Shown here: piece after piece, positions 6,869-32,869 of the stretch
How the letters are laid out: each line of letters opens with the position of its first letter
Numbering within the stretch: position 1 is the first letter of the stretch
Origin: Massalongia carnosa
Taxonomy: Eukaryota
Direction: 5' to 3'
Assembly: GCA_965645245.1 (NCBI GenBank)
Contig: OZ287074.1
Span: forward strand, 2,170,001-2,234,000
Length of the DNA stretch: 64,000 nt
Notes under the pieces: generated by a model
Database searches by the model: none
What the model was told of the DNA's origin: nothing
Seen by the model: only the letters and a program-made list of their open reading frames with translations
Translations under genes and position numbers: made by a program

Positions 6869-8102
6869 ATGTCAATTATGGATAGTTTCGAGACATCACG
6901 AATATTAGGTTCTTCGGCATCTAACTCGGCTCAAAGCAGAGCGGCTATGCAGAACGAGGAAAATCCGGCTCACATCCAAGACACTAGGCAGCGCAAGAAA
7001 GTTCAGAATCGCATAGCCCAGCGAACCTACCGCGAGTCTTTCGAGAAAACGCTCACCTGGGAGGCTTTTAGCTAATTCTGTGTGGCAGGTAAAAGAATCA
7101 AGTCTCGAATGGAAGCGCTGGAACGCTTTCGAGAAGCCTCTACGGCACAAATGTCACCATCGGACATTAGCTCCCCAGAGTTCAACCCTCCAACAGAACC
7201 GGAGAGCCATTCTTTTCAGCCCATGCCCTCTCCGGCCATTTCAACGCCCTCCTCTCTACATCATTCGTACTGCTTACAAGACCAAGGTAATGTTACCAAA
7301 TGCTCTGCTTCGTTGTCGTCTTCGGAGAGAGACGACAGTCTTGCTTCTTCGTTCCAGACACATCCCGAACATATTATCCCTACGGTTACACCATCACTGG
7401 ATACGGCTCTGTCTTTCAAGCCGCAGAACAACCGAACCGATCATGGCTTGTGGAATTTCAGCCAAGCAGTCAACATTGGACTTAATGTGGAAGGCATCAA
7501 TGAGCCGCGAGACGCTGAGTACCACAACCCGCCCGAATGGCCACCCTCAGATCTCATAAAAGAGGTAAGAATGGCTAATACAATCACGACTACGATCCAA
7601 TGCTGCCTGACTCTATATATTGCTCCCAACGTCCTGCGCTAACGTATAACTACTCAAGTTCGCCAGGGATATGTACCTTCCTGACACCCCCCAGATCCAG
7701 GATAGCAAAACCGCTCTGCACATGGCCGCCGAGAAAGGTAAAACGTCGACGGTGCAGCTCCTCCTTAGTCTGCAGCCCGATATTCTGGCACAGGATGGAA
7801 GGGGCCGCACGGCGCTCCATCTCGCCGTGTTCAACCAGCACCAAGATGTCATCCAAGAGCTTGTCAAACGGCCGATCTGTCTGGAGGTCCAAGATCAGGG
7901 CGGGCAAACAGCATTGCATGTCGCGGCTGCCCACGGACACGAACGTGCCGTAGCCTGCCTACTTGCCGCGGGTGCAGATCTCGAATGCAAGGATGCGAGA
8001 GGCCATACTGCCTTTCATCTGGCTGCGGCAAACGGACGGGACAACATTCTCCGATTATTGTTCAATCGAGGAGCTGATATCAATGCCAAGATCAAACTAT
8101 AA
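6869..8102 (+). CDS. bZIP-basic-region plus ankyrin-repeat (bANK, TOXE/Aps2-like) pathway-specific transcription factor; 3 or more exons
   Basis: [27 protein letters not shown] basic region; C-terminal ankyrin repeats ([34 protein letters not shown]); introns 7032-7088 (GC-AG) and about 7565-7694. Confidence 0.85.
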
Positions 8103-8714
8103 ATTAACTCGTGTTTGAGTAATGCATGGGAGTGACAATCCGGGGCCGTCAAGTTTCCACCTTGCAGCATATTCTTCCACAAGGCATTCTCACAAACGAT
8201 ATTTAGACACTCGCGCCGCATATTTGTTTTATTCTGCGTCTCGTCAAGATCCGACATAGAATTGTTGTGTAGCATATATAGACTATCAAGAATGGTTCGA
8301 CAAGGCTCAAAACCAGAAGTGTTGAAGATGGTTCAAATGGCAGGCAAACATTGTTGGAGGCGTGAGGGCAATTACCAAGCAATACAAGAAGATAGGCCCA
8401 GACAGAAGACGGTGTGCCGAAGGGTGTCTACAGTAGAATTCATGAGGATTATTGGTGCGAGAGTCGTTCTGCTGCTCGTGATGGATGGAACATCAAGGTC
8501 GACGGCATCTTAGCGTTTGTCAGTATTCGAACCATGGTGCGAGATTTGAAGACTCGAATCGGTTCTGAACCCTTCATAGAAAGTGTAGCATTGCTATCAA
8601 AGACCTTGATAATTCCTCAGTCCATTAAAGATTGTGGGCTATACCTGAGCATTGACTCTTAATATTTACCGCCCACACTGATCAAGAGGTTGAATGAGCA
8701 CATCGATCGGAAGA

Positions 8715-10849
8715 TCACATCGGAACTGCTGGCGCCATTTTCACACGCTACTCACAATTGGTTAATCGCTCAAAAAGTTCCTTGAAGTACTTACTCGAAG
8801 TCCTAGAGAAGCAATCACTCCCAAAGCTGCGGCTGCATAGACTGGAATGAACCTGTAATGATTCTCGTCAGAGAGGTTGAGTATTTAGTAATTTGAGAGA
8901 TGTGCCTTACACTTTGGAAAGAGATTCCACTATGATTGCGAGCGCTTGGGTCTTTTGATCTTTGCCTAATGTTGAGAGAAAGTCGCCGCTTAATCCTAGT
9001 AAAGCAGCCTGGAGTTCGGCGCGGGGACGATCGACAAGAAGCACTTCGAGTCCACTCAAGGCGCGATTTATGAAAACAGCTCCGGAAATAGAGAGTGCTA
9101 GCGCTACGCTCAGAAGTTGGGCTACGGGGTTTGGGTTAGTATGGATGAGAAGGGCCTTTCGGAAAGAACAAGGGTATTGTGTCGCTTACCAACCATTATG
9201 AAACTCAGACCAAATGTCACCAACTCAGGTCTGGTGAGGGTCTGAATCACCGCGAATGCAGCTTGCATGCCGCAGCCGGACCCAATGCCGAGTAGGACCT
9301 CATATCCATATATAGTACCGGTTGAGGTAGTGGCGTCGATGCGAGCTAAGATTATCAGAATGCGGTTGGATCTGAGGGAACACTGGGACCCACAGAACAA
9401 TACGCCTGCAACTAAAGTCAGGATACTTCCCACTAAGAACCATGGCATGTAGTATCCGCCGTTAGACAATGTTCCACTATTCACAAGGATGAGAAAGGTG
9501 ATGAAGACGATGAGAGGCAGCAGTCTGATTGCAGACTCTAGTGGTGCATCACCACGGGTAAATTGGAAATAAGTTGGAATGAAGTAAATCGGAATGAAGC
9601 CGGCCGAGTTAAAGGTTGCCGTTAAGATGAAGAGGAGAAGAGCTTCTTTGATTTGCAGGAAGGCGACTGGGAACAAGCGAGCCCTCTCACTCGTCAGAAG
9701 GGCGAAATATTGTTGCACCACAAACACCGTGAATAGTACCCCCGAGAGTCCGAAGAGGACGATAATCTGGGCGCTATTCCAGCTGAAAAGGGTACCGCCA
9801 AAATTTATAGCCATAACCAGGCAGACTAGAGATCCTATGCTAAGGACTATGCCAACGCCATCGAGGTTGCGAAGGCGTGAAGGGATGCTTTGAGATTGCT
9901 GAGGCTTGAAACTTGGAATCAGGAACAGATAGACTGGGCTCAAGAGTCCGATGATGCAGAGGTTCACGTAGAAGCCCCAGCGCCATGTGGCCTTCGAGTC
10001 GGCAAAAGCACCTCCAACCACGGGTCCGACAACGTTGCCGATACCGAACGTTAATCCCCTTATCGAGGTCAGCTTCGTATCGGCCGTAAAAGAATGCTTG
10101 TTACTTACACCAGGCCCAGATAAATTGGACGCTCAGTGGAACTTGTGTTGACAGATAACAACGTCATTACCCCGAGGTAGGTCCCGATTCCGCCCACACC
10201 CGCGATAACACGTCCGACAATGAACGCGTTGAGATTGGGCGCAGCGGCGCATAGAGCAGATCCGACCGAGAACGTAACAACGGAACCAATGTAGAGCTTT
10301 TTGGTGTCGAAGAGGGCATACGTACTGCCGAAGGGAAGAACGAAGCTGACCCCCCCGATCATGAAACTGAAAGATGTGTCAACGAGAGTGTCTAAGTTAA
10401 GTTGACAAGGAACACTTACGCGACAGAAAGCCATGGAAGTTTGTCCGCACCGCCGAAATCTCTGACGATGACCTGTACATTGCCTGTCAGATCCTAGGAT
10501 TTGTCTCCTGCTCCTTCTTATGGATAAGGCTCATACCGGAATGACGTCGGCGGTTATGGTGTTGTCGAGGGCGTACAGGAATACGCTGGAGAGGATAGCC
10601 AGCACGGCAAGGATCCACTCAAGTTGTGCATTTCCCATGTCAGTAAAGCAATAAGCGAGGGGAACGAGACGTTTGAGAAAGACGATCGCTCACCCGCTTT
10701 CCCGTAAGTTTTCGGACTAGAGGGCTCACGTGATCCCGAAGAGATTCATGGTCGTGCGGAGGCATACTTTCTTCTCTTTCTTCGTTTGCCTCTTTTTCTT
10801 CTCGAACGGGTGAATCGTTCTCGCGCCGGGTGAGTCTGTGAATCTCCAT
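8715..10849 (-). CDS. MFS drug/toxin efflux pump (DHA2-type, TOXA/AflT-like); multi-exon
   Basis: GSALCAAAPNLNAFIVGRVIAGVGG, GPVVGGAF...WRWGFYVNL and YIPxYFQFxRG-type motifs; many hydrophobic helices; several canonical introns; last exon RVKMAPAVPM*. Confidence 0.9.
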
Positions 10850-11778
10850 GTTGGTTGTAGTAGAACAAGGGGGAGTCCGATCAGTCTTGTAGAGCAAACA
10901 ATCGATGTGAGGAAAGCCGATGAGGCATTTAAGTGATAGCTAGCGGGGGCAAGTGTTGATTGTTGATCATCTATCGGGGCAGGACTAAGGATCCAACCAC
11001 TGTGCGAGTGCTTGTGCGACTGATAGTGCAAACGCGTGATAGTAATGGGATTGAGATTATCAAGCAAATCGCAAATCCATCGAGTCATCCATTAATTCCC
11101 CACCAGCCAAGCTCTACCCTATCGTCTTTCGTACCTTTGGTAACTTAAACCAAAACGCTGTATTATACAATACGGTACGCGCCTCTGCAGCCGAAGGCTG
11201 GGTACGTGTTTTTGGATATTATTAATTCATTTTAAACCCATATTAAACGTTTCGAAAACGTGCTTTTATCGCGCGATGCATACATTCAGATCTTCAACCG
11301 CTACGAGTTCTGTAGTAGACTTGATGAACGAGACCTGTCACCCCCGATGATTTGATGCTATATTACGTGAGAATAATACAGGTTAGGCACGTGTAGACGC
11401 ATGGAGGGTACACGGATATGCAGTGTTGCGCAGGGTCCACGGGTTCGCTGTTACTGTGCTCTGCATGCAGACTTCTATGCTCCCTCTGCTCTCCGTAGGT
11501 AATACAGTGGAGTTGGCAGGCCCGATTGGCCGGGAAAACCAAGGTGCAGTCGGTGATATTAATAGATCTAGGTAAGTGATGCTGGTCTGGGTCGAGACAT
11601 GCCTGATTGATGACCACCGACGAAACTTCAGTCAGATCTTTCATGGAGAGGCAGTTCCAGCCCTTCGGAACGTCATCTATATGATGGACTTTCTGCCTGT
11701 AGAGGACGGACAACAAATTAGAGAACAAAGCAGACCTTTCTTCGGACGTCTGACAGAAGTTGCCCGAGTGCTACCGCG

Positions 11779-13325
11779 ATGACTCAACCAGCAGTCAACA
11801 GCGATGCCGTCGCCCACCATGCTAGCCCCGCATATGTGATTGAGGATCGTCTCTTTGTCAACAACGAGTTCGTGTCCTCCAAATCCGGCCTCAGGCTCGA
11901 TGTCTATAACCCTACGACGGAAAAGGTGTGCGCTTCAGTGTATGAGGCTACCGAGGAGGATGTCGACATAGCAGTCAACGCTGCCAAAGCCGCATTCCCA
12001 GCCTGGTCGAATTTGAATGCCCAGGACAGAGGCCATTACTTGGAAAAATGGGCTGATGCCTTGGAAAGGGCTCTCCCAGAGATGGCGTATCTGGACGCCA
12101 TCAGCATGGGCAAACCTGCATACCCAGATCGTGAGCTGACCTTTCTTTCGGGAAGGACAATGGCAAGGGACACTAACTCACGGTCACAGGACTGGCACCC
12201 ATAATTTTGAACATCGTTCGGTTTTTTGCTGCCAAGGCATTGGACGTGACCGGTGAATCGTCTTTAAACACGGCAAATTTTGTCAACATCAGCATTCGGC
12301 AACCGTATGGGGTATGTGGGGCCATTACTCCTCGGCACGCTCCCGTCGTGGTAATGGCCTACAAAGTTTCGGCTGCTCTGATCACGGGCAACACCCTGGT
12401 CCTGAAATCATCGGAGAAGGCACCTCTCAGTAGCCTCGTGGCCGCCCGTTGTGCAAAGGAGGCAGGTATCCCACCGGGTGTCTTGAACGTCCTCAGTGGC
12501 TCCGGAAAGCCTTGCGGAGAGGCCATTGCAAGACACATGGAAATCCGCAAGCTTTCGTTTACAGGGTCGACGTCGGCAGGACGGGCCGTTCAAAAGGCGG
12601 CGGCCGAATCAAACCTGAAAAATGTGACCCTGGAGTTGGCTGGAAAGAGTCCATTGATCGTTTTCGAGGATGCTGACCTGTCGAAAGCAGTGCCTTCAGC
12701 CTCCATGTCGATTCTGGTAAATTCTGGGCAGATGAGCAATGCCAGCTCGAGGATCTACGTTCACGAGGCAGTTGCCGAGAACTTCATTGAGAGCATGAAG
12801 GTCACGATGACCCTTATGGGGGAGAGCGCGGACCCGTTAGCTGAAGGCACCCGAAGAGGACCGCAGGCAGACAAGGTACATTTTGAGAGGGTCCTATCAT
12901 ATCTGGCGCTGGCGCAGCAGTCTGGCATTCAAGCGCCGCTAGGTGGTGGGCGAGAAGGTTCCGAGGGATATTTTATCGAGCCCACTATTCTCATAGACGT
13001 TCCGGAAGACTCGAAGGTTATGAAGGACGTGATCTTTGGTCCCGTCGTAATCATCAACACCTTCACTGACGAGGATGACGTGATGAAGAGAGCGAATGAT
13101 TCCGAGTATGGATTGTATGCCAGTGTCTTCACGAGGGATATTTCACGTGCTCTATGCACTGCTAAGCGGCTTGAGGCTGGGAGTGTCGGAATTAACTGCA
13201 CAAGCCCAACAATGGCGATGGACATGCCCTTTGGCGGGTGGAAGGGAAGTGGGTCGGGCAGGGAGTTTAGCAGGTACGCGACTGACTACTGGACCGAGCT
13301 GAAGTCGGTGTACATCGCGTTGTAA
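11779..13325 (+). CDS. Aldehyde-dehydrogenase-fold protein with substituted catalytic residues; one intron at about 12131-12189
   Basis: LFVNNEFV, LKSSEKAPLS, SFTGST, LELAGKSP, FIEPTI and PFGGWKGSGSGRE motifs; but PWN>PRH, GQxC>GQMS and EEIFGP>DVIFGP. Confidence 0.9.
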
Positions 13326-13976: not shown

Positions 13977-15141
13977 TTAGTCGAGTAGCCTCGGAGTCAT
14001 GAGATTTTTCAGGTAATCGTCCGCAATCTGGACTCGATTCCCCTGGAATCTGACAACATGCTCTTGAATGGCATCCGTGAGGATGGTTTTGAGATCTTCT
14101 GTAGTTAGCTCCTTGGCTTGAAAGCCGCGTTCAATATCCTGAAGTGCTTGATCATTTTCCACGAAAAAACGCAGGTATTGGAGCATTAGGGTTATGTCCA
14201 TTCCCATACCCAGGTGGGTTGGGAAAGCAAGCTGAAGCTTAACGCGAATCGTCGATGGATCGTCTGTCAGGAAGATGGCCGAATCGTGGATTGAAGCCGA
14301 CATTTTCGACTGAGCACCTTGGAGTGCGGGTAGGAGGCTCGAATACAAAAACGCCGGCTTATGGTACCCCAATTTTTCTGCGTGTTTGCGAACTTCGCTG
14401 AAGTATCCGTCGATGTCGTATGAGCAAGCAATCAAGCAAGACATTGATTTTAATTGATGCTGGCTCGTTCCGAGGATTCCGGGGAAAGATGTGGCGAACG
14501 CGCCCGCAGATTGAGTCGAACAACAGTAAAACTTCCCGACATTATCATCGTCGTCGAAGTCGAGCGTGTTCTTGATGTTCTTTATCGAAATGTGTCTCGC
14601 TATACCAACGATATTTTCGTAAAAGGCACCCCCGACGAAGTCGAGATTTGAGAAGATGAAGGTTTTCTTGGGATTGAAGCCAAATGCGAGAATGTCTTTT
14701 GCGTTATCTATGTCAAAGCGTCTGACGTCTTGAAATGTGAGATCTTTGGAATGAAGCAGTTTCATGTCATCAGTGAGCATGATAATAAGAGGAGCCTGGA
14801 ACACATCTTGCAGCCATCTAAGATGCGTCAACAGGTGATATGGACAGTCAGTCGAGTCTGACGTAGGCTTACTTGGTAAATTCGAATGGAATGGAGTGTC
14901 CAATGTGCAGACTGTCGCTGCTTGGACCCCTTCCAGTGAACAGATAAAACGGCAGTCCACGCTCATACTTGTCTAGAATGCCATCCAAGCCGTGGTGGCA
15001 GAAGACTATGCCTCTTCGCAGGTACCTATGAGGTATATGACCCGTCACTCTTTCAAAGCGTTTGAGTATCTTTGTGTCGATATGACTTGCATCGGTCTCG
15101 CGGATGAATTCGTTCAAATTGTCCTCTGTAACGGTATTCAT
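13977..15141 (-). CDS. Divergent cytosolic-type tryptophanyl-tRNA synthetase paralog (exons 15141-14873 and 14817-13977)
   Basis: LRRGIVFCH, FYLFTGRGPSSDSLHIGHSIPFEFTK|WLQDVF, NAKDILAFGF..KTFIFS, PALQGAQSKMSAS, AIFLTD and MTPRLL motifs; GT-AG intron 14818-14872 restores FTKWLQ. Confidence 0.92.
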
Positions 15142-15794: not shown

Positions 15795-16064
15795 TGTCAC
15801 GGGCAAGGTCCAGATAGGGAGATATGCAAGAGTTACTACTAGAAAGCTAGGTCTAGGGATAGTATACAAGACGTCCGACGAAGAGCTCAGGTTTTATAGC
15901 CATGGCTTCCAACTCCCCTATTCTTGACTTGCCCTTATCTCTGTTCCTGTTCTAATTTCCAAACCATGATCGCTTTGACCTGTTCCGCCTTTCTCCATGC
16001 CGAAGCAATCTCTATCTGCTGGGCAATCACAGTCGTAGCCTTTCAATTATCTGCCAAGTATCTC

Positions 16065-16470
16065 TTAAATATTTCCAAATAGCCTCCCAAATATTCCCCC
16101 AAATAGCTACCAAATAGCCTCCCAAATAGTCTCCGCTGCTTTTCAGATAGCATCTCAAATAGCCTCCCAAATATCCTTTCAAATAGTCTCGCATAAAGCC
16201 TCCCAAATAGCCTCCCAGATAGTCTTCACCGCAATCTCCCAAATAGCCTCCCAAATAGCCTTCCAAATATTCTGCGCTGCTTTTCAAATAACTCTTCAAA
16301 TAGCCTCCCAGATAGCTATCAAATAATCTCCCAAATAGCCTCTCAAATAACTTTCAATAGCCTCCCAAATAGTCTCCCAGATTATCTCCGCTGCTTTTCA
16401 AATAGCCTTTCAAATAGTCTCCCAAATAGTCTCCCAAATAGCTATCAGATAGCCTCTTGAATAGCCTCAA
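16065..16470. repeat. Degenerate 12-bp tandem array (AAATAGCCTCCC)n
   Basis: Directly visible repeated unit with periodic CTCCGCTGCTTTTC inserts. Confidence 0.85.
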
Positions 16471-16837
16471 TATCTATCTCCCATGTTATCAATTTTCTTT
16501 TTCCGCCGGTTTTCGTATAGCTTCTTTAGCTTTTTGATCTCGTGCATCTTGAATTCGTCTATTTTCTCGAAGCTGTCGATAATGAGGCACTCTAGAAGCG
16601 TAAAAATAATCGATTCCGTTTTCTCCCTTCCAACCCGATTTTTCTATTATATGTCGTTTGACGTGATTATAAGCTCGTCCGTCTCGAGTCTTATCTATAT
16701 CATCGTCAATTTTTTTTCGTCAAATATCTTCCGTTAACATTCCTGTATCGAAGAACAAAACTAGAAGAACCTAGAACCCAAAAGACAAACTGAACGAAAC
16801 ACGAAGAACCGAAGAAACCGAAGATCGCTACAGTGTT

Positions 16838-23600: not shown

Positions 23601-24903
23601 CACACGGGGACCAAAAAAGTTGCGACACCAAAATTTTCACCCCACCAAACTCCTATCAAAACATCGATTTATTTACATCAGAAACTGCTACTAATGACCT
23701 GCCATTCTTCCATCACCGTCTAAAACGTCCTCTAGTCGTTGGGGCATACCTAATACCAAAGAATTAATGAATTCCTGAGAAACACGATCCCTCCAGCCCG
23801 TTTGAATGGCCTCAATCATACTATTATCATCCCAATGATCTGATTTTGACAGCCATTGTTTTACTGGCTGCCAGCAGTTCTCAATGACGGACAAATCAGG
23901 AGATTTGGGAGCATTGAAGTAGTACTTTAGCCCATATTCTTCCTTCCATTTTCGTACGATGTTGTTGTTGTTTGCAGAACCGTGACCTGAATCACCATCT
24001 TCTTCCAAAACAAATCGTTCACCGGCCTCGAGACATGGCTTAATAACAGGCTCCAAAATAGAGTCAATATAGACTCGTTGACTCATTTTCCCATTGTTAT
24101 TTCCTAAAACCTCGTAAAAGTACAAATCGGACTTGTAATTCCACCCGACCTTAGCCCAACAATGATAAACGTTTTTGCACTGATTCTGAGGTTTCTTTTC
24201 CTTCCTGCATACAATCAAAGCAGTATCTTTCACCCGGACGACGTATGATTCGTAATTGACGTTGAGGTCCCTGTCCAAAATGCACTTCATCACTGAAGCG
24301 TACCAGCTTCCAGTCCTCGAGAGTGTACTTGCATTTCATTTCTCTGGCAAATGTACGTCGTTTGGCACGTATATTCGGAGATAGCCATGTTCTCGTGCAT
24401 GCTAAACATTTGTGATACTCCAAGTCCTGCATAGCTCTTCGAACGGTATGCTAATGTACGTGATTTGCCCCTATGAGACCCACTTCCGCAGCTAATTCAT
24501 GCCACGTTTTAGCTCGTGCTTGTATGCCTCCATTTTCTATGATCTCCTGCATCTTTTGAGTGTACTCAGCTGCTATGAGTTTCTTTCTTCCTCGCGTTTC
24601 CGGCCTGTTTGGATTGTTATGAAGACGTCAGAAGAACTATCTTTGAGCATTGCCCATCCCCTGCTCCGTTCCACTCCAAAATTACGAAAAACGTCGCTTT
24701 TGAAATAGAATATGCCATGCGCGTTGTTAAATTCGCTCACAGCTTGTACTTTGGCTTTAGTAGGTGTAGAGTATTCATGTTGAAAATCATGAGACTCTAA
24801 CTGAGGTGTTTGTTGACGTTGCATGATGATTGAATTGTTTGATGATAAATGAGTTTTGGTGGGGTGAAAATTTTGGTGTCGCAACTTTTTTGGTCCCCGC
24901 GTG
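23601..24903 (-). mobile_element. Tc1/mariner-like DNA transposon with ~47-bp TIRs; transposase pseudogene at about 24824-23691
   Basis: TIR CACRCGGGGACCAAAAAAGTTGCGACACCAAAATTTTCACCCCACC at both ends; FSDEVHF, EDGDSGH and SPDLSVIENCW motifs; flanked by GATAG on both sides. Confidence 0.9.
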
Positions 24904-25141
24904 GATAGTCAGTCGACTGCAAAAGGTTGGTCGCGACCCTGAATTTGGGACCACACATCAAATATTTATGCGAAAATGGCAAAATGCCGGCAAAAATCTG
25001 AAAACTACCCTCACCGCCTACATGCCAATGAAGTCGTACTACTGGTCAGTATTGAAGCGACTTGTAGATTAGTATATGTAGATGCCATTCCCCGTCTTTT
25101 TTCCCTCCCCCCTCTGCCATTCCCCATTTTTTATCTCAGAT

Positions 25142-27289
25142 ATGAAACTTCGTGAACCGAGAGCAAAAAGATCAAATTCCGGCCCCCCCCCGGCTGGAAA
25201 AGAGCCTTTCAAAGGTAAGAGAATCAAAGTGACTTTGGGAGGGCCGAGAGCCAGAGCCATTGTCGCCGCCGGCATCGATGAAGCCTCGCCGGAATCGACG
25301 TCGGCCCCTCCCAAGCCAAAGCCTCCCCTCAAGTCAAAGCCCCCCTTCAAGCCAAAGGCCCCCCTCAAGCCAAAGGCCCCTCCCAAGCCAAAGGTCTCTC
25401 CCAAGCCAAAGGCCCCTCCCAAGTCAAAGGTCCCGCCTCAGCAGTCAAAGACTTTCGAATCGAATTATTATAGTCCCCTTGTCATTACGGAGGATTCCTC
25501 CGACGACTGGACGGATGAAGACGAGAAGCAGAGGTGGCAGGGTCAGTGGAGAAAGGAGAACGCGATGAAAGCTGTAGATGCCGAAGATGATGCCGAAGAT
25601 GATTCCGAAGATGATGCCGAAGATGATGTCGAAGATCTCAATGTGCCTAGTAACTCGATTGTCAGTAAGAAGTCTAGAAAACCAAGAAGAAAGGAACCCT
25701 CCCGTTTATCCCCTTCGCCACTGCCTCCGACGGTAATCAAATATCTACTAAATGTGAAGATGTCGTATGAGAAGCACGTCGTTTTCGAGACGGTGATTCC
25801 ATACGAAGTCAATTCAACTACGTCGAAAAGATTCTTTTTGAGAAGCTACACCGGGGCCATGAGTTTGAAAGCCGAGACGTATGCGAATTCCAAAATGTAT
25901 GCTTGTCATTTGGTCGAATCAAAGCGACCGTGTTATGGAATTGAATCAAACCGCATGAAAAATCAGCTCTCATGTTGATCGAATCCTGGCAGCCCATTGA
26001 GGAGGTTCTAATTCATTTAGAAGACAGCAGCATTCGAAAGAAAAGCTTCGCGGTTGATCTTATTTTCAACTTCAGTCGTACCAAAGATGGCGTCATTCCT
26101 CCCGATGATCCTATTGCTGCTGCCACAGCTGTCGCCACCAAGAAATTGGGAACCGCGACCATGAAGCTGCAAAAAGAGATGGAGGAACGAGCCATGTTGC
26201 AAGGCATGACGGCCGAAAGAATGTCCGAATTGCAAAGTCTGCATCTCTGTGAAAAACGCGCATGTAGGAATTTCGGACAGTACTGTTGGAATGATGAGAC
26301 GAAGAATCAGCATTATCCTCTCAACAGTGCTCATTTCGTGACCTGGAATAAAGCACTAGATGATGGAATTTCAGGCGTTGATTCTCGAACACCTCCACCG
26401 AAGATCAGAGAGACTTTATTCTCCCTGAATAAAGGTAAGAAAAAAGACTGAATCATCATCTCCAAAATAGGAAACCTCGTCTCAGGAAATGCTCTTTGGA
26501 GGTGGGCATTCCATTTATCAACATCCCATGTATCAACACCACTCGTACCTAAACCCCCACTCGACATTTCCCCCCTCGTCATTTCCCTCGGCATTCCCCT
26601 CGGCATTTCCTCAATCGGCATTTCCTCCCTCGGCATTTTATCCTTCTCAGTATGCTCCTTCTACATTACCTGACTCGAGACGAGCCCGTGAGGAAACGCC
26701 GTTGGATTGGAGAGATTCGAGATCATCCAGAAGCAGTCGAAGCGTGAGTCGATTTCTCCCTCTCCCCTCCGTCGCCCGCAGCAGTCCAGTGGAAGAAGAT
26801 CTGGAAGACTATGTCAGTTGGCTCGTTCAAATGAAGCCTCATTTGAAAGGAGTGCTCACCAACGCCTGCGATCGATTGATGGAAGGTGTATACGATCTGA
26901 TGACCGTTCAATCCTTGAAAGGCATCGAGTATCAGACGTTCTGGCAGGAACTAGGAATTCCTCCGGGAATCGGGATTCAACTGGCGCGAGACGTCAGTAA
27001 ATTTGGAAGAGAAATATCTCGGCAAATGCCTTTGCAAATGTCTCGACAAATGTCTCGACAGATATGTCAGCAAATGCCCCCGCCTCCCCCTCGGCGTCAA
27101 CGCCATTTACCGACATCGCAAATGGCCACTCAGGCGGTCACTCAGGCGGTCACTCGGGTGGATAAGGGGATGGAGGATGGGGAGGTGGACGGGGGCGGGG
27201 AGGTAGGATCTGGAGTGAGAGATACAATTGAGGAAGATGAGACGCATAGTCTAGAATACGATTATGCCGAAGATGAAGATGAGGATTAG
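25142..27289 (+). pseudogene. Transposon passenger gene of unknown function (Pro/Lys-rich repeats, acidic tract, Cys/His motif), disrupted
   Basis: Three consecutive ORFs (25082-25978, 25972-26451, 26489-27289); (KPKAPP)n; CEKRACRNFGQYCW...HYPL motif. Confidence 0.55.
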
Positions 27290-27304
27290 ATACTATGTAT
27301 CTAA

Positions 27305-28349
27305 TCAGATTGAAATGGTTGGATACTGAATGCCAGCCAATCTAAATAAATTTCCCGGGTCTCCCATTCTCAGATCTTTGACTGCATCCCGAAGAAATTG
27401 TCCGAATCCCCCATACTCCTCCGTGTACGAAAGACTCATTTCTCCATTCCGTCGAATCCATGCCTTTAGCAATGCAAACGACGTTTCAATTGGATTGAAA
27501 TCTGGAGAATAAGGAGGTAGTCGTGCCAAGGTGACGTTGGCTGTCTCGCACATCTGAATAAGCTCCTGATTCCAATGAATGCTGGCATTATCTAGTACTA
27601 AAACAGATCTAGGACCTCCATTGGCAGTCGTCTGAGGAAGAACCTGATTTCGAACGAAGTCGTTGAAAATTTCGGCAGTTATGGAGCCCTGATGCACCTC
27701 CCAAGCTATATATCCATCGACGGTAAATGCAGGAAGAATGCTCCATCTCTTTGACCTTTTCAAATCCTGAATCATGATTGGAGGGACGCCTGCCTGAGCC
27801 CATCCGTATCGTCGGTCACCTAGTCAGAAAGTCAGAAAAATGACGAAGATGGGATGAAAGATGAGATAGGAAATAACCGGTTCTTTCGCAAGCTGCACTT
27901 TCGTCCAAAAAGATCAATTGCTCTGCAGTCCATTCTCCGAGTCTCTGCATCCATCCATCTCGAAGGCCTTGATTTCTTTGAGCTGCTTGTTTGATCACCT
28001 TCTTTCGATTCCAACCAAGCCTTTTTAGGGCACGACCAACGGTGGTCTCATCTGCAGATATCTGAAATTCGTCCCAAATGAACCAGCACATTTCATCCAG
28101 ATAGGCATGCGGACGTTGCTCCAGATATTTCAGAAGTTCAATCTCATGAAATTGACTGAGTTTACGAGGGCGATGTCCAATTGACAATTGAGGTAGAACC
28201 ACATCTCCAAAATGAGTCCAATTACGTCTCATTCGTTGAATCTGTCTGATGCCAACACCAGTGACAGATGCAATTGTCTTATTGCTGTCACCTCGTACAA
28301 AACGAAGCGTGATTGTCTCACGAAGGGTCTCACTGAGAGGGGGGGGCAT
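27305..28349 (-). pseudogene. DDE transposase (DDE_3/IS630-like) with one intron and a 1-bp frameshift near 27780
   Basis: N-terminal HTH; FLDES, LDNASIH and PPYSPDFNPIE motifs. Confidence 0.85.
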
Positions 28350-28807
28350 TTTGGGAAAATGGCAGAGGAGAGAGGGAAAAAAGACGGGGAATGGCATCTA
28401 CATATACTAATCTACAAGTCGCTTCAATACTGACCAGTAGTACGACTTCATTGGCATGTAGGCGGTGAGGGTAGTTATTCGGATTTTTGCCGGCATTTTG
28501 CCATTTTCGCGTAAATATTTGATGTGTGGTCCCAAATTCAGGGTCGCGACCAACCTTTTGCAGTCGACTGTAGTAACATAACTAAGCCTGCATAGCTGCA
28601 ACATCCATACGCAAACAGCTCGGCTCCGTGATCCCCGTTTACAGCCAGTTCTCCGCCGTCGGTGTAGTTGAGTTTCACCCCGCACTTCTCGTCATGTTGA
28701 GCGATAATAAAAGCCTTCAACTCTATCGTACTTTCCTTCCTTGACTGATCCGGGTGATCATATCTCTACACATACACGGTTCGCCCCAAGTTTTCTTATC
28801 TGCAATC

Positions 28808-29931
28808 ATGGCTTCCTCTGCCCACCCAAGCGGCTTTCCCACTCTCGAGGCCGCATACATCTTTACGGTAACGTCTCTCAGGTTTCCTGGAATTAGCCAG
28901 TTGCCGCTAAGTTCGAATCTGACATGACGCTTCTCTTTCCAAGGTCAATGTTGGCGAGGGACACGTTGTCGGCAAGTTTCCTCCGCCAACTTCGGGATGA
29001 CACCAAGAAACCAACTAATGACCACTTCTTTGGCTATGTTATGTAGGCAATGTGTTCTCGGGATCATCGCTTACTTATTTCGTAAGCTGGTCTGGCTAAT
29101 AACACGGCGTTTTGAGAGGCTCAATAAGGCTGACCTCACGCAATGCTGAAGCCGTTTGTGGGTGGATCGATTCGAACAGTGCCAGGCTTCGAGCCAAAAA
29201 TCGATGCGGAGGTCATTTTCGGAGGCGATTCCATATATTTCGATCCTGACAAAGAACATGGACGACTCAATGTCAAAGGCATTGCGAAGTAGGTATCCAG
29301 TCCTTGGTTCTAATGGAAATGGTTTTTTTCTTCTACTTGACAGAGCAACTGAAGAAAGACGTATTTTCAGGACAATCGAGGGTACTGTAAGTTCTTGCTT
29401 TCTTTTCTGCTTCAAAAAGATATTCTCCCACTTTAACCATGTGCCTTATCACCACCCGAGCGTTGCTCTCCATCTGCAGCCTACATTAAGTGCTCAAAAG
29501 TAATCCTTGGCCAGGCCTTGAGTTTCACGCACACCGGGACCATATACGTCAACGACGAGATCCGGCTCATCATCAGCGGAAGTTCCGAGGCACACACCAT
29601 ACCCTTTGGCCAAGTGAGTATGTTTTCTCTACTTGTTCTCAAGGTGTTCCGCCAAGCCTATCGACTCTACTGACATATTCGTAGCAACCACAGTCACCTT
29701 TGAGGTAAGTTGTGACAACTACTGCGCAAAGATCCCTTCTTTTCTGTTTCTCGAACATGAGTAGTTCTGTTTAAATAACGACTTGGAAAATCCGAGTAGG
29801 TCGGTGATGCGCGATACAAGGATTTGGAAAAAAAAACCTGGGTAGGCAATGGGCGCTTTGTGATTGAAGGCGGTAAGCTGGTAGCGGAATCGAGGGTTTC
29901 CATGGTGATCCCTAGCACCGCGATGAACTAA
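28808..29931 (+). CDS. DUF3237 (UPF0311) family protein; many small exons
   Basis: MASSAHPSGFPTLEAAYIFT...PFVGGSIRTVPGFEPKIDAEVIFGGDSIYFDPDKEHGRLNV...SGDARYKDLEKKTWVGNGRFVIE...MN*; exact exon borders uncertain. Confidence 0.7.
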
Positions 29932-30998
29932 AGTTCACTATGTTACGATTCAGTCGGAAACACTATAGCGAGATTCTGTAGGCGTGAGGGGGCCTCTCGT
30001 ATTTTAGAAGTTCTCCTCATGAGAATCAGGCGTTGTTATCAGAAATTGACTGATTCAAGCAACTGCTCTTGTAAACAGTCAACGAAATGAAGTGAAGAAA
30101 TAAAAGTCGATTTTAATTTGTATTGTAAATGAACCAAAAATGCGTGATAAATTTTTTGAAAAACCGTGTTCCCACAGACTTTCCGAAGTCTTTTCCAGTA
30201 TCATCAGCTCGCTCGGTTTCACAACCTGGCATGCATTTGCGGAAGTGCTGCATGCCGGATCAGACAGCGGCCGAAGTTTGGATTTTCTGTTGAGCCAAAT
30301 TTCTTAAAATCACTTCAATCCCCCCAATGAAACTTATTCTATTGATCTTCTCAACCTGTTTTGCTAACCAGAGTCCCGATATACCTAACAGTTCTGAGCT
30401 GGAGATCTAGCAGGTATCACATCCTTTATTCTAGGCAGGTTTAAATGCTGAATCATCGTTCATTATAGGGATTTTGTTTAAAAATGAACGGACGAAAGGT
30501 ATAGCCATATCCGCGTCAAGATCAAGTCTTTTATCAGCTATCGGAAGAAAAAAAAAAGAGTGTGGCCACATAGCCCGTTAGCGTCACGAAGGGGGGGGCC
30601 ACAAAAAGAGGTTGTTCCTATAGCTTTGGTAATCGTTTCACTTTGTGGCCTTGAGTCACTCCGCGCCGTAATCTCGCCCACCCCCCAGAACGATACATTG
30701 CAAGACGCCATGGCTTGGTTTCCTTTGTGAGCTCACAGCCATGATGATGGCCGAAAGAGGCAAAAAACCCGTATGTAACTTTATATACGGGGTGGCAAGC
30801 ACACCCTGGTTGCCTGTTTTTAGCTAACTGGGATGGGCTCCATTTGGGGGCTGATTATGTGTGGCATGGCCCATTGGTGAGGAAATATAAAGAGCCCGAT
30901 TGCCCTAAAAGATGGCGAGATACTCATCAACTTATTCCCTTGATTATTGGCGTCTCCGACTTATCTTGTTGGTATTTAACATCTTCTGTGCTTCAAGA

Positions 30999-32869
30999 AT
31001 GATGACGAGGCTCTGCAATCTCCCAGTTCTGGCGACTTGGGCGGGCCTTGCATTAGCCTATCCATCTGGTGACAATCTGGCAACTCGCAATTCTTCAAGC
31101 TGCGTTCGTTGATCTCTGGCTGCTTTGATGAACATTATTAACAGCTAAAATGTTTTTTTAAACAGTGTGAAATACTCGACGAACGATTCCCGCTTCAAGT
31201 CAATGCAGTTGGCGAGAAAAATTACACAAATTATGATGACCAATTCTGGTGTATGTGACCGGGTTTAAACATCTCTTCTCTTCATCGATGCATGACTGAG
31301 CAAGTACCCCAAGCTTCGTCCGCGGTCCGTTCCCCGAAATGCATCTTTGCACCCCTTTACGCCGAGGAAGTGTCGACAGCAGTCGCACTTTTCAAATCCC
31401 ACCAATGCAAGTTTGCCGTTAGAGGCGGTGGCCATTCCGCTGTGCCTGGCGCCGCAAACATAGACGATGGCATATTGATCACGTTTGCCAACATGAAGAA
31501 CATCAGCCTTCATACCGATACAACCGGAGTCGAGTACGTGTCGATCCAGCCAGGTGCCGTCTGGGGCGATGTATACAAATTTACCGATCAGTTTTCGAAA
31601 GTCCCTGCTTGTGGTCGCTTTTATCCGGTTGGCACGGGGCTCGCCCTTGGGGCAGGCTTTTCTTTCCTAGCCAACGACGTCGGATTCACCGTGGATAATG
31701 TGAAGAGCTATCAGATGGTCCTTGCCGATGGATCCTTAATAGAAGTGAACCAAACGGATAACAGCGACCTCTTTCGCGCCCAAAAAGGGGGCGGCGATAA
31801 TTTCGGTGTCATTACCCGCTACGATCTGTTGGTGTACCCGGGAGGGCCCATCGTGGGCGGCCTCATCGTGGCTCCGGAGAATCAGACGGAAAAATGGCTC
31901 GATCAGACGTATGACTATAGCGTCCGTCAGGCGGTGCAGGATGTTAAAACGCACGCGTTGCCCGCGATTGCTTACATTGCGTCGAAGAATCTGGTGTTTT
32001 CCGAAACCGTTGTCTACTACAATGAGCATAACAGCAGCGTCCTGCCACCCATCATGTCCGGCTGGAACGAGCTAACCGGAAGCACTAGCACGGTACGACA
32101 AGCATCCTATGCCTCGCTCGCTCAGGAATATGCAGTAGGGTTCAACAATGGGCTCTTGTACGTTTTCTTCTTTCGCATCTTGTTTCCATGCCCGATTTTT
32201 AATGACCGTGCTAATGTGAACATGAGCCTTTAGCCAGGAGCAGCGGGTCTATACCATCAAAGCCAACCGAGAGGAATCTGCATACGCATGGTACAGTTTC
32301 CTATCGTGGGCCCGGTCCATCGGGAACGTCGATGGTTTCAATATCCTGCATTGCAACATGCCGATGATGCCAAGGATGATGGAAGCCGGAGTCGCAAAGG
32401 GATCCAACTCCCTTGGCCTAGCTAGTACAAAGGAGACCCTCACCAGTAAGTCGGCTTCGCAAATCATCTAAAAATTCCTGTCTCGCTATATCTCGATGCT
32501 CTCAATAGAAGATTTCCGGTTCATTGATACTAATCTAGTCTTGTATTTCGGCATCACGCTAGACAAGCGCGACGATGAAATCGTCAAGTCATTCCGGGCG
32601 CTCTTCAACCATCTCCAGTCGCATTCCACGTCGAAAGATCTCCTGCATCGTTACATGTTAGTCCTTCCTGATCAGGCCTTCCTCTTCTCAAATTCGCTTT
32701 AGACATATGAAGTCTGACAGATTTCAGAATGTGGAATTATGCCGGTGTGGGCCAAGAGGTTCTTCGCAGCTATGGCGCTGCTTCGAACACGTTCATGCAG
32801 CGAGTAAGGACCCGTTACGATCCTACGGGCGTATTTGCGCGACTTGTACCAGGAGGATTCAAATTGTAA
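30999..32869 (+). CDS. Secreted FAD-linked oxidoreductase (BBE-like, FAD_binding_4); multi-exon
   Basis: Signal-peptide-like N-terminus; FAVRGGGHS flavinylation motif; GAVWGDVY; DLFRAQKGGGDNFGVITRYDL; C-terminal WNYA...YDPTGVFARLVPGGFKL*. Confidence 0.88.

What the first reader, a model, noticed from the sequence alone, without database searches (positions are those of the whole stretch)
6869..32869. Seven-gene biosynthetic-type cluster with no canonical core enzyme, built around a tRNA-synthetase paralog
Seen: a bANK regulator, MFS exporter, ALDH-like protein, TrpRS-like protein, P450, DUF3237 protein and FAD oxidase. All appear to have open, spliceable frames while nearly every surrounding TE is broken, and TE fields bound the block on both sides. 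Known: bZIP-ankyrin regulators (TOXE for HC-toxin, Aps2 for apicidin) and DHA2 MFS pumps are typical of fungal toxin clusters, and aaRS paralogs occur in clusters as resistance genes (cladosporin LysRS, indolmycin and chuangxinmycin TrpRS) or as biosynthetic enzymes (VlmL, SbzA). Inference: no NRPS, PKS, terpene synthase or DMATS is visible, so this may be an undescribed cluster class whose scaffold-forming step is done by the TrpRS-like enzyme and which signature-based miners would miss.
Basis: partly seen in the sequence, partly recalled or inferred. Interest (0 to 1): 0.9.

Follow-up and report, generated by a model that had tools for sequence, protein, structure and literature searches.

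The report
Fungal gene cluster around remodelled TrpRS copy
A transposon-riddled stretch of a fungal genome holds a small conserved gene group (regulator, export pump and a rebuilt copy of the tryptophan tRNA-charging enzyme) that probably activates some other acid, but the claimed seven-gene cluster is only partly real and is decaying in this genome.

Summary
All seven genes are present, and the finding's borders are exact: bANK ATG at 6869, oxidase stop at 32869. No NRPS, PKS, terpene synthase or DMATS domain was found anywhere in the 64 kb.

The block is not compact. Three transposon bodies fill about 38% of it. The "Cys-less" ALDH is a private degeneration of this copy: the window's copy is the only one of the 110 sequences matching the motif that has Ser in place of the catalytic Cys. 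The DUF3237 gene has no in-frame 5′ end.

The TrpRS-like gene is the real finding. It belongs to a monophyletic, long-stemmed Pezizomycotina paralog clade. The clade keeps HxGH, KMSAS, the carboxylate-binding Lys and Gln284. All 34 members replace the α-amino-binding Glu with Met. The clade also loses Tyr159 and Gln313 and deletes the anticodon-binding loop. A drug-resistant working TrpRS is therefore unlikely.

An independent metagenome contig carries orthologous bANK, TrpRS-like and MFS genes side by side, among different oxidoreductases and without a core enzyme. ALDH shares a contig with the paralog in seven other assemblies. The OtaC-like P450 shows no such co-distribution.

Best reading (about 0.45): a bANK-regulated, core-less module in which the TrpRS-derived enzyme adenylates a hydrophobic acid. 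No expression data were available.

The parts
6869..8102 (+). bANK-type transcription factor: an N-terminal bZIP-like basic region followed by ankyrin repeats. About 3 exons.
   Evidence: Ank PF00023 E=3e-30 on 7650-8099. bZIP_1 on exon 1 is weak, E=0.022. The intron after the basic region sits at the same place in L001. The ankyrin region is 65% identical to the L001 orthologue.
8762..10849 (-). MFS transporter with multiple exons. The start codon is provisional.
   Evidence: MFS_1 hits on two exons. The exon chain and stop were read. It is 64-83% identical to the L001 MFS, exon by exon, with matching intron positions.
11779..13325 (+). ALDH-family gene with two exons (intron about 12131-12189). 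The frame is open, but the catalytic and cofactor residues are lost.
   Evidence: Aldedh E=9e-121. Changes are GQVC to GQMS, PWNAP to PRHAP and ELGGKSP to ELAGKSP. It deviates at 7 of 100 near-invariant columns, against a median of 0. The best homologue is the Lepidopterella palustris ALDH at 81%.
13980..15141 (-). TrpRS-derived paralog with two exons (intron about 14817-14871). It is intact and forms the centre of the conserved module.
   Evidence: Translation. Yeast and human TrpRS alignments. Clade alignment and tree. Residue table. It deviates at 2 of 98 conserved columns, against a clade median of 1.
15819..20686 (.). Gypsy-type retroelement fragment (protease, RT and RNase H in broken frames) with 12-nt-period satellite-like repeats at its left edge. 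It is inserted between the TrpRS-like gene and the P450.
   Evidence: RVP, RVT_1 and RT_RNaseH hits. Repeats at 16046-16489. Depth is 10-500 times the single-copy level, and unique contigs end at 15818 and 20687.
21241..22971 (-). Cytochrome P450 of the OtaC-like type. Four exons with three in-frame introns; intact.
   Evidence: p450 hits on three ORFs. Alignment with 15 homologues shows that the three stop-bearing segments are introns. The FGKGTRTCLG heme-binding motif is present. It is 48-55% identical to Aspergillus proteins that UniRef names otaC, and 59-62% identical to proteins of lichen-forming fungi.
23601..24903 (.). Decayed Tc1/mariner-type element with 49-nt terminal inverted repeats.
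   Evidence: Inverted repeat I3. DDE_3 E=6e-9. High copy depth.
24910..28570 (.). TIR element with 213-nt terminal inverted repeats at 97.7% identity. It carries a DDE_3 transposase (-) and three low-complexity ORFs (+).
   Evidence: TIRs; DDE_3 E=2e-26 and HTH domains; ORFs; high copy.
29143..29931 (+). DUF3237 gene. Exons 2-5 have canonical splice sites. The 5′ end is missing or frameshifted; a relic lies at 28924-28997.
   Evidence: PF11578 pieces at E=5e-4 (profile positions 34-71) and E=3e-4 (profile positions 119-147). DNA reading: the frame-2 relic has no ATG, and there is an in-frame TGA at 29131-29133 with no acceptor after it.
30999..32869 (+). FAD-linked (BBE/VAO-type) oxidase, about 5 exons; looks intact.
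   Evidence: FAD_binding_4 E=8e-19. Exon chain and the C-terminal ...YDPTGVF...GGFKL end. Best solved relatives are EncM, carbohydrate oxidases and reticuline oxidase.
11363..11370 (+). Api-box-like site TTACGTGA in the divergent MFS/ALDH promoter. A second site lies at 23528-23535, upstream of the P450.
   Evidence: TKACGTGA has 8 matches in the window against 3.43 expected; 2 of 100 shuffles reach 8. L001 has 4 matches against 0.99 expected; 4 of 200 shuffles reach 4. The Apf2 motif TGACGTGA is from PMC4109984. This is a lead only.

Best explanation
The conserved unit is smaller than the seven genes claimed. It consists of a bANK transcription factor, an MFS exporter and a neofunctionalised paralog of cytoplasmic TrpRS. 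An ALDH is a frequent fourth member, and the set of other oxidoreductases changes from clade to clade.

The paralog keeps the class I adenylate-forming machinery: HxGH, KMSAS, the carboxylate-binding Lys and Gln284. It has lost the Glu that holds the substrate's α-ammonium group, the Tyr hydroxyl and Gln313. It has also lost the α10-α11 loop that reads the tRNA-Trp anticodon.

I therefore infer that it no longer charges tRNA-Trp with tryptophan. Instead it would use ATP to activate a hydrophobic, probably aromatic, carboxylic acid that has no free α-amino group, and pass the acyl group to an unknown acceptor. The neighbouring oxidoreductases (ALDH; elsewhere GMC, SDR and DAO-type; here possibly the OtaC-like P450 and the BBE-type oxidase) would make or tailor that acid. 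The MFS would export the product, and the bANK factor would switch the genes on.

Shown: the gene content, the clade, the residue changes and the synteny. Inferred: adenylation of a non-Trp acid, independence from tRNA, a biosynthetic purpose and co-regulation.

In this genome the module is eroding. The ALDH has lost its catalytic residues, the DUF3237 gene lacks its 5′ end, and transposons fill 38% of the interval.
For: PARALOG CLADE. The 36 sequences are monophyletic (SH-aLRT 100). They sit on a stem of 0.95 substitutions per site, nested among Pezizomycotina housekeeping TrpRS. The clade is strongly conserved internally, with 98 columns at 94% or more.

FOLD. An AF2 model of a full-length member has pLDDT 89.7. 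It matches yeast and human TrpRS at TM 0.90-0.92.

RESIDUES, 34 paralogs against 10 housekeeping enzymes.
- Glu146/199 is Met in 34 of 34 paralogs and Glu in 10 of 10 housekeeping enzymes.
- Gln313 is Ile in 32 of 34 paralogs and Gln in 10 of 10.
- Tyr106/159 is F8, K3, D1, C1 among the 13 paralogs that cover that column, and Tyr in 10 of 10.
- Ser378 is Pro or Ala in 25 of 34.
- Gly380 is deleted in 24 of 34 and Asp382 in 33 of 34.
- The spacing from KMSAS to YLxFF is 31-42 residues in paralogs. It is 48 in nine of the ten housekeeping enzymes and 40 in the tenth.
- Kept: Lys147/200 in 34 of 34, Gln230/284 in 34 of 34, HxGH in 10 of 11, and KMSAS.

The residue roles come from passages of PMC2879500, PMC2275098 and PMC1538984.

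SYNTENY.
- L001 is a metagenome contig whose paralog is 89% identical to that of Pseudocercospora fijiensis. Its gene order is SDR, bANK, TrpRS-like, MFS, GMC, DAO.
- Its bANK, MFS and TrpRS-like genes are orthologous to the window's at about 57-71% amino-acid identity.
- ALDH and paralog hits share a contig length in 7 other assemblies. Two of those contigs are only 18,387 and 8,861 bp long.

OTHER.
- No core-enzyme domain was found in the window or in L001.
- TKACGTGA sites resembling the Api-box are enriched in both loci and lie in the promoters of the MFS/ALDH pair and the P450 (window) and of the SDR/bANK pair, the TrpRS-like gene and the MFS (L001).
Against: - There is no expression, product or enzyme data.
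- DNA-level synteny rests on one independent locus (L001). The named-genome links rest on equal contig lengths, which for Mb-sized contigs do not prove adjacency.
- The ALDH link is clade-limited: clade a 6 of 6, clade b 1 of 7, clade c 0 of 10, and in the window's own clade only the window.
- The P450 homologues found come from other taxa and contigs. So three of the seven genes may be unrelated neighbours.
- Gln313 also contacts the ATP ribose in human TrpRS, so its loss could impair ATP use.
- The Lys431 position stays basic in 26 of 34 paralogs (R22, K4), so some tRNA contact is not excluded.
- The position of yeast Glu141 / human Gln194 is Met in 6 of 10 housekeeping Pezizomycotina enzymes as well, so it is not diagnostic.
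- The motif enrichment is marginal and partly post hoc. The window's TrpRS-like promoter has no site.
- The window's copy of the pathway is visibly decaying.
Confidence: 0.45

Rival explanations
1. Detoxification or conjugation module rather than biosynthesis. The TrpRS-derived enzyme activates an aromatic acid taken up from the environment or a partner organism. The oxidoreductases process that compound, and the MFS pumps the conjugate out under bANK control.
For: This rests on the same conserved trio and the same remodelled pocket. The oxidoreductase sets vary between clades, as catabolic clusters often do. No scaffold-forming enzyme is present.
Against: By the passages read in PMC4109984, the characterised bANK factors regulate toxin biosynthesis. 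Nothing in the data separates export of a product from export of a detoxified compound.
Confidence: 0.15
2. There is no seven-gene pathway. A conserved gene pair or trio has simply been placed beside unrelated genes in a TE-rich, gene-poor region. The unrelated genes (OtaC-like P450, DUF3237, BBE-type oxidase) could be remnants of a canonical PKS/NRPS cluster, ochratoxin-like for example, that lost its core.
For: - Transposons separate the P450, DUF3237 and oxidase from the trio.
- These three genes are absent from L001.
- P450 relatives lie in other taxa, and their closest named relatives are OtaC of PKS-NRPS clusters (OtaC role from the introduction of PMC12197560). That paper also documents degeneration of such clusters.
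- The ALDH and DUF3237 genes are decaying.
Against: No PKS or NRPS fragment was detected in the window, even among 123 small ORFs. Once the transposons are removed, the seven genes form a compact block of about 16 kb. An Api-box-like site lies upstream of the P450.
Confidence: 0.15
3. Regulatory pseudo-synthetase. The paralog is a ligand or ATP sensor that works with the ankyrin repeats of the bANK factor to control the pump. This would resemble HisZ or the HisRS-like domain of GCN2 (both recalled).
For: The TF, the paralog and the pump are kept tightly linked while the enzymes around them change. Ankyrin repeats mediate protein-protein contacts (PMC4109984).
Against: HxGH, KMSAS and the carboxylate-binding Lys are invariant across the clade, which argues for catalysis. 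No binding test was run.
Confidence: 0.08
4. The paralog still acts on a tRNA. It charges tRNA-Trp or another tRNA with a non-canonical, Trp-like acid for a downstream tRNA-dependent step.
For: The full TrpRS fold, including the C-terminal helical domain, is kept. The Lys431 position is Arg or Lys in 26 of 34 paralogs.
Against: The anticodon-reading α10-α11 loop is deleted and varies in length. The Lys102 equivalent is not conserved. No tRNA gene lies in the window or in L001. No tRNA-dependent transferase is recognisable nearby.
Confidence: 0.08
5. Self-resistance copy: a drug-insensitive but working TrpRS that protects the producer of a TrpRS inhibitor, with the core gene lying elsewhere.
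For: The precedents are bacterial indolmycin-resistant TrpRS copies (PMC9437257). A pump and a pathway regulator sit beside the gene.
Against: A resistance copy must still bind Trp and tRNA-Trp. Here the α-amino-binding Glu is Met in 34 of 34 paralogs, the Tyr159 hydroxyl and Gln313 are lost, and the anticodon loop is deleted. No core enzyme lies within 64 kb here or within 17 kb at L001.
Confidence: 0.05

Closest known systems
Eukaryotic cytoplasmic tryptophanyl-tRNA synthetase (yeast Wrs1, PDB 3KT0/2IP1; human WARS1, PDB 2QUH/2AKE)
   Same: The fold is the same, at TM 0.90-0.92. Sequence identity is 43-47%. Kept features are HxGH, KMSAS, the carboxylate-binding Lys, Gln284, Asp312 and Tyr316, and an intron-bearing fungal gene structure.
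   Different: - The α-amino-binding Glu is Met.
- Tyr159 is Phe or Lys.
- Gln313 is Ile.
- The α10-α11 anticodon loop is deleted.
- Lys431 and Lys102 are not conserved.
- There is no N-terminal extension.
- The stem branch is long.
- The gene sits beside a pathway-type regulator and a pump.
Antibiotic-resistant second TrpRS copies of bacteria (indolmycin resistance; review PMC9437257, passages read)
   Same: It is an extra TrpRS-family gene outside the housekeeping role.
   Different: Those enzymes remain working TrpRSs. This clade has lost the determinants for both Trp and tRNA, and it is eukaryotic.
aaRS-derived biosynthetic enzymes of bacteria. Examples: the MetRS-like enzyme of hydrazine-forming cassettes (PMC13149037, passage read) and cyclodipeptide synthases with a TyrRS/TrpRS-like fold (PMC9437257 and PMC12945691, passages read).
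   Same: A class I synthetase fold is reused to make bonds in a small-molecule pathway, in clusters without NRPS or PKS.
   Different: Different parent synthetase, different kingdom and different partners. CDPSs have lost ATP binding and use charged tRNAs. This clade keeps its ATP motifs and appears to have lost tRNA reading.
bANK-regulated toxin clusters: HC-toxin (ToxE) and apicidin / apicidin F (Aps2/Apf2) (PMC4109984, passages read)
   Same: The regulator has a basic region plus ankyrin repeats, an MFS pump is in the cluster, and sites resembling the Api-box TGACGTGA are present.
   Different: Those clusters are built on a four-module NRPS, and none is present here. The ToxE tox-box is absent from the window. 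Orthology of this regulator to ToxE or Apf2 was not tested.
OtaC, the P450 of ochratoxin A biosynthesis
   Same: The window's P450 is 48-55% identical, over the exon searched, to Aspergillus proteins that UniRef names otaC.
   Different: No otaA PKS, otaB NRPS or halogenase is present. The best hits, at 59-62%, are uncharacterised P450s of lichen-forming fungi.

Membership tests
Functional tryptophanyl-tRNA synthetase (EC 6.1.1.2) | Class I Rossmann fold with the HxGH and KMSAS signatures | tested here: met
   The window copy has HIGH and KMSAS. KMSAS is invariant in 36 of 36 sequences. HxGH is present in 10 of 11 paralogs that cover it. Fold match is TM 0.90-0.92.
Functional tryptophanyl-tRNA synthetase (EC 6.1.1.2) | Trp-binding side chains: Tyr159, Glu199, Gln284, Gln313 and Lys200 (human numbering) | tested here: not met
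   Glu199 is Met in 34 of 34, Gln313 is Ile in 32 of 34, and Tyr159 is Phe or Lys in 11 of 13. Only Gln284 and Lys200 are kept. Roles are from PMC2275098 and PMC2879500.
Functional tryptophanyl-tRNA synthetase (EC 6.1.1.2) | Anticodon recognition by the α10-α11 loop (Ser378, Gly380, Arg381, Asp382, Ile384, His387) and Lys431; discriminator-base recognition by Asp99, Lys102 and Arg106 | tested here: not met
   The loop is shortened by 6-17 residues and varies in length. Asp382 is deleted in 33 of 34. Lys431 is Lys in only 4 of 34 (Arg in 22). The Lys102 equivalent is never Lys in the 10 paralogs that cover it. Roles are from PMC1538984.
Functional tryptophanyl-tRNA synthetase (EC 6.1.1.2) | Trp-dependent ATP-PPi exchange and aminoacylation of tRNA-Trp | not testable with these tools
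   This needs a biochemical assay.
bANK transcription factors (ToxE/Aps2/Apf2 type) | N-terminal bZIP-like basic region without a leucine zipper, plus C-terminal ankyrin repeats | tested here: met
   Ank E=3e-30 with 4 stretches. The basic region [16 protein letters not shown] gives a weak bZIP_1 hit, E=0.022. Absence of a zipper was judged by eye only. The definition is from PMC4109984.
bANK transcription factors (ToxE/Aps2/Apf2 type) | Sequence orthology to ToxE or Apf2, and binding to a tox-box or Api-box | tested here: inconclusive
   No ToxE or Apf2 sequence was compared. The tox-box has 0 matches against 2.5 expected. Api-box-like TKACGTGA is modestly enriched.
Canonical fungal biosynthetic gene cluster | A core scaffold enzyme (NRPS, PKS, terpene synthase or DMATS) among the clustered genes | tested here: not met
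   None was found in the six-frame Pfam scans of the window or of L001. The genome beyond the window was not available.
Canonical fungal biosynthetic gene cluster | Co-expression of the member genes | not testable with these tools
   No RNA holder was listed.
Aldehyde dehydrogenase (PF00171) | Catalytic Cys302, oxyanion Asn169, general-base Glu268 and NAD-binding Glu399 (standard numbering, recalled) | tested here: not met
   In the window copy Cys is Ser, Asn is His and the EEIFGPV-type Glu is Val. Only the ELxGKSP Glu is kept. Homologues keep all of these residues.
DUF3237 (PF11578) | The complete domain of about 149 positions | tested here: inconclusive
   Only profile positions 34-71 and 119-147 matched, each below the gathering score. 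The N-terminal part is not in frame.
BBE/VAO-type FAD-linked oxidase | FAD_binding_4 domain plus the C-terminal substrate domain | tested here: met
   FAD_binding_4 E=8e-19. Solved relatives are EncM, carbohydrate oxidases and reticuline oxidase. The C-terminal end motif was read. The Pfam BBE domain itself was not detected on the split exons.
Cytochrome P450 | Heme-binding FxxGxRxCxG motif, ExxR motif and I-helix AGxxTT motif | tested here: met
   FGKGTRTCLG and AGIETT are present. p450 E=4e-23.

The most novel reading that the evidence does not exclude
The TrpRS-derived enzyme is the only bond-forming catalyst of a previously unrecognised, core-less class of fungal specialised-metabolite clusters. 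These clusters would be regulated by bANK factors and spread patchily through Dothideomycetes, Eurotiomycetes, Sordariomycetes and the window's own lineage. The enzyme would adenylate an aryl acid and ligate it without tRNA. Signature-based cluster miners would miss the whole class.
Probability: 0.3. Interest if true: 0.85.

Novelty: new variant of a known kind. Interest (0 to 1): 0.62.

Why it matters
Synthetase-derived enzymes that build natural products are known in bacteria. My searches of the held library turned up no paper describing a fungal TrpRS-derived family or its link to a bANK regulator and a pump. Absence from those searches is not proof that nothing has been published.

If the clade activates a non-amino acid, it adds a new type of adenylating or ligating enzyme to fungal secondary metabolism. 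It also gives a simple sequence anchor for mining clusters that antiSMASH-type rules cannot see: MLTDDMK together with the shortened post-KMSAS loop.

The locus also shows how such a cluster erodes in a TE-rich genome. Frames stay open while catalytic residues are already lost.

Tried and rejected
- WHOLE GENOME. Not held, so the flanking windows could not be inspected.
- METAGENOME SCANS. The first scan, with the single protein, found no relative. The second, with alignment A1, gave L001 and L002. L002 is only 1.3 kb and carries no context.
- ACCESSION NUMBERS. The listing of cluster members, wanted to test gene adjacency in the named genomes, is switched off. Equal contig lengths were used instead.
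- REST OF THE L001 CONTIG. The genome search on the record behind L001 failed because the record is not held. The remaining 11.5 kb of that contig stay unseen.
- RNA. No RNA holder was listed.
- READ LAYING. Only DNA contigs were laid. They showed which parts are single-copy and which are repeats. They also showed that run X4 carries the same sequence, with 0 differences on three unique pieces. There was no independent allele and no splice evidence.
- ToxE TOX-BOX. 0 matches against 2.5 expected.
- SHARED PROMOTER k-MERS. A de novo search over 12 promoters found nothing above the shuffles.
- EARLIER FINDINGS OF THIS SCAN. Nothing exists for this genome, this sequence or the specific words. The generic hits were prokaryotic and did not bear on this locus.
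- tRNA GENES. None in the window or in L001.
- RIP AS THE CAUSE OF THE ALDH CHANGES. Rejected. The dinucleotide indices show no RIP signature, and several of the changes are transversions.
- GLU141/GLN194 TO MET AS A PARALOG-SPECIFIC CHANGE. I held this at first and then withdrew it. Six of 10 housekeeping Pezizomycotina enzymes also have Met there.
- COMPLEX PREDICTION FOR bANK WITH THE PARALOG. Not run. No full-length pair from one organism could be supplied, and a pass would have moved the odds only a little.

Full report
WHAT IS THERE

The window is fungal, with short GT-AG introns. The protein searches returned only fungal homologues among those that carry a name. No whole genome is held for it.

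Six-frame Pfam scans and manual exon reading give this layout:
- bANK regulator, 6869-8102 (+)
- MFS, about 8762-10849 (-)
- ALDH, 11779-13325 (+)
- TrpRS-like, 13980-15141 (-)
- Gypsy fragment, about 15819-20686
- P450, 21241-22971 (-)
- Tc1-like element, 23601-24903
- TIR element, 24910-28570
- DUF3237, 29143-29931 (+)
- FAD-linked oxidase, about 30999-32869 (+)

Transposons flank the block on both sides.
- To the right: Copia, Gypsy, DUF3435, pogo, Tc1 and LINE domains in broken frames.
- To the left: a 336-bp LTR pair at 99.4% identity and other repeats.

Transposons also occupy about 9.8 of the 26.0 kb inside the block. Laid DNA contigs show the genes at single-copy depth and the TE parts at 10-500 times that depth.

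No NRPS, PKS, terpene synthase or DMATS domain was found in ORFs of the whole window. None was found in 123 small intergenic ORFs either.

STATE OF THE SEVEN GENES

The P450 has three in-frame introns. Alignment with 15 homologues shows the stop-bearing segments as insertions, and the heme-binding motif is present.

The FAD oxidase, the MFS, the bANK gene and the TrpRS-like gene can all be spliced with canonical sites. The one exception is a probable GC-AG intron in the bANK gene.

The ALDH frame is open but the enzyme looks dead.
- GQVC has become GQMS, PWNAP has become PRHAP, and ELGGKSP has become ELAGKSP.
- It deviates at 7 of 100 near-invariant columns. The median is 0 in 63 full-length homologues.
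- Of 120 sequences (the window's own copy and 119 homologues), 110 matched the catalytic-motif regex. 109 of these have Cys, and the only Ser is the window's copy. The other 10 did not match the regex.
- This includes the 81%-identical Lepidopterella palustris protein, which keeps the Cys.
- There is no RIP signature.

So 'Cys-less' is a private decay of this copy, not a family trait.

The DUF3237 gene has well-formed exons 2-5. The stretch that would encode its first about 33 domain positions is out of frame with the only nearby ATG, and it is followed by a stop with no acceptor site.

THE TrpRS-LIKE GENE

A search with exon 2 found 35 close relatives at 53-76% identity. Those that carry a name come from Lepidopterella, Metarhizium, Aureobasidium, Pseudocercospora, Cucurbitaria, Clohesyomyces and two Aspergillus species of section Nigri. 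Ordinary cytoplasmic TrpRSs followed at 43-47%.

In a tree of 36 paralogs and 24 housekeeping enzymes, the paralogs form one clade (SH-aLRT 100). The clade sits on a stem of 0.95 substitutions per site, nested within Pezizomycotina housekeeping TrpRS.

The window's copy is typical of the clade. It deviates at 2 of 98 conserved columns, against a median of 1.

Among the best 150 of 1.84 billion 50%-identity representatives, only 4 carry the Met/Met signature. Four further fragments carry the DID motif. The family is therefore small.

An AF2 model of a full-length member has pLDDT 89.7. It superposes on yeast and human TrpRS at TM 0.90-0.92.

ACTIVE SITE AND tRNA DETERMINANTS

I aligned the gene to solved yeast and human TrpRS. 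I then tabulated key columns in 34 paralogs against 10 housekeeping enzymes. Residue roles come from passages of PMC2879500, PMC2275098 and PMC1538984.

Kept in the paralogs:
- HxGH and KMSAS
- the carboxylate-binding Lys (34 of 34)
- Gln284 (34 of 34)
- Asp312 and Tyr316

Lost in the paralogs:
- The Glu that binds the substrate's α-amino group is Met in 34 of 34 (housekeeping: Glu in 10 of 10).
- Gln313 is Ile in 32 of 34.
- Tyr159 is Phe in 8 and Lys in 3 of the 13 sequences that cover it.
- The α10-α11 loop that reads C34, C35 and A36 is shortened and varies in length. The spacing is 31-42 residues, against 48 in nine of the ten housekeeping enzymes and 40 in the tenth. Asp382 is deleted in 33 of 34.
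- Lys431 is Lys in only 4 of 34 and Arg in 22.
- The Lys102 equivalent is never Lys.

One early impression was wrong. The yeast Glu141 / human Gln194 position is Met in 6 of 10 housekeeping Pezizomycotina enzymes too, so it is not diagnostic.

A working or drug-resistant TrpRS must bind both Trp and tRNA-Trp. This clade has lost determinants for both while keeping the adenylation machinery under strong constraint. That argues for a new ATP-dependent activity on a hydrophobic acid without a free α-ammonium group. The substrate and the acceptor remain unknown.

IS IT A CLUSTER?

The only DNA-level context I could obtain is L001, 17.5 kb of a 29-kb metagenome contig. Its paralog is 89% identical to that of Pseudocercospora fijiensis.

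Its gene order is SDR, bANK, TrpRS-like, MFS, GMC oxidoreductase, DAO-type oxidoreductase.

tblastx shows that its bANK, MFS and TrpRS-like genes are orthologous to the window's, with matching intron positions. Identity is 65% over the ankyrin region, 64-83% over the MFS exons and 58-71% over the TrpRS-like exons. Nothing else is shared.

So the trio survives across two deeply separated sub-clades while the surrounding oxidoreductases differ.

For the named genomes I could compare only contig lengths. ALDH hits at 71-81% identity and paralog hits share a contig length in 7 other assemblies. Two of those contigs are only 18,387 and 8,861 bp long. This holds in 6 of 6 members of one sub-clade, 1 of 7 in a second, 0 of 10 in the third and, in the window's own sub-clade, only for the window itself.

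The search with the P450 exon was a weak one, restricted to longer proteins. It returned 21 homologues, none from a paralog-bearing contig. The best are from lichen-forming fungi at 59-62%, followed by Aspergillus proteins that UniRef names otaC at 48-55%.

The evidence therefore supports a conserved bANK, MFS and TrpRS-like core with a frequent ALDH. Membership of the P450, DUF3237 and oxidase stays open.

REGULATION LEAD

The ToxE tox-box is absent. An unbiased k-mer comparison of 12 promoters gave nothing significant. It did, however, bring up TTACGTGA. That is one base away from the Api-box TGACGTGA of the bANK factor Apf2 (PMC4109984, passages read).

TKACGTGA occurs 8 times in the window against 3.4 expected; 2 of 100 shuffles reach 8. 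Two of those matches lie in the two copies of one LTR. It occurs 4 times in L001 against 1.0 expected; 4 of 200 shuffles reach 4.
- Window sites lie in the MFS/ALDH promoter and upstream of the P450.
- L001 sites lie in the SDR/bANK spacer, 131 bp upstream of the TrpRS-like ATG, and upstream of the MFS.

This is suggestive only, and partly post hoc.

WHAT COULD NOT BE DONE

- No RNA run is listed.
- The accession look-up that would have tested adjacency in the named genomes is switched off.
- The rest of the L001 contig and the rest of the source genome could not be read.

LITERATURE

Four full-text searches found no paper on a fungal TrpRS paralog or on this gene group. I also read passages of two reviews on aaRS duplication and on aminoacyl-tRNA-dependent biosynthesis, of a 2026 paper on tRNA-deacylase-guided mining, and of the FRIGG resistance-gene study. 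None mentions it. Supplements were not consulted.

VERDICT

The most likely picture (about 0.45) is a small, bANK-controlled, core-less module. In it a TrpRS-derived adenylating enzyme activates an acid made or trimmed by neighbouring oxidoreductases, and an MFS exports the product.

In this genome the module is eroding. The seven-gene composition, and the role of the enzyme as scaffold former, remain hypotheses.

Noticed in passing
window 2945-5901: An LTR-bounded element. Two 336-bp direct repeats (2945-3280 and 5566-5901) are 99.4% identical. They enclose a 672-aa Ser/Ala/Pro-rich ORF (3386-5401, +) with no Pfam match. It may be a young non-autonomous LTR element.
   Followed up: partly
window 24910-28570: A TIR element with 213-nt inverted ends. 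It carries a DDE_3 transposase on the minus strand and three low-complexity ORFs (25082-27286) on the plus strand with no Pfam match. Contig depth is far above the single-copy level, so the whole unit, cargo included, appears to be amplified.
   Followed up: partly
window 49307-53322 (-): A patatin / NB-ARC / TPR gene of the fungal NLR type. Its TPR region (49218-50759) is an array of 126-bp-register repeats at 86-95% identity.
   Followed up: no
window about 13726-13776: A short, high-copy repeat in the spacer between the ALDH and the TrpRS-like gene. The depth bin 13534-14200 is about 15 times the single-copy level, unique contigs break there, and loose ends are seen in all three runs.
   Followed up: no
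window 21184-21451 and 21765-22391: One contig (run X3) covers the 3′ end of the P450 with 31 differences in 268 nt. Single contigs in runs X3 and X4 join 21765 to 22391, skipping 625 nt, without intron-like ends. These may reflect a second diverged copy or an assembly artefact.
   Followed up: no
proteins P0262, P0298, P0301, P0305: P0262 is a 793-aa protein made of two TrpRS bodies in tandem. P0298, P0301 and P0305 are TrpRS-like representatives with a residue other than Glu at the α-amino-binding position (two with Ser, one with Arg). They may be other remodelled TrpRS lineages.
   Followed up: no
window 46467-48299 (+): A DUF3435 protein split over three frames. It looks like a broken element of the tyrosine-recombinase-associated type (the assignment to that type is recalled).
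   Followed up: no
L001 14880-16373 (-) and 11604-13635 (-): Next to the orthologous trio lie a DAO-family oxidoreductase and a GMC oxidoreductase. The closest solved relatives of the DAO-family protein are a sarcosine oxidase and an L-amino-acid deaminase. Enzymes of this kind could turn an amino acid or an alcohol into an acid without an α-amino group, which would fit the remodelled pocket. This is speculation.
   Followed up: partly
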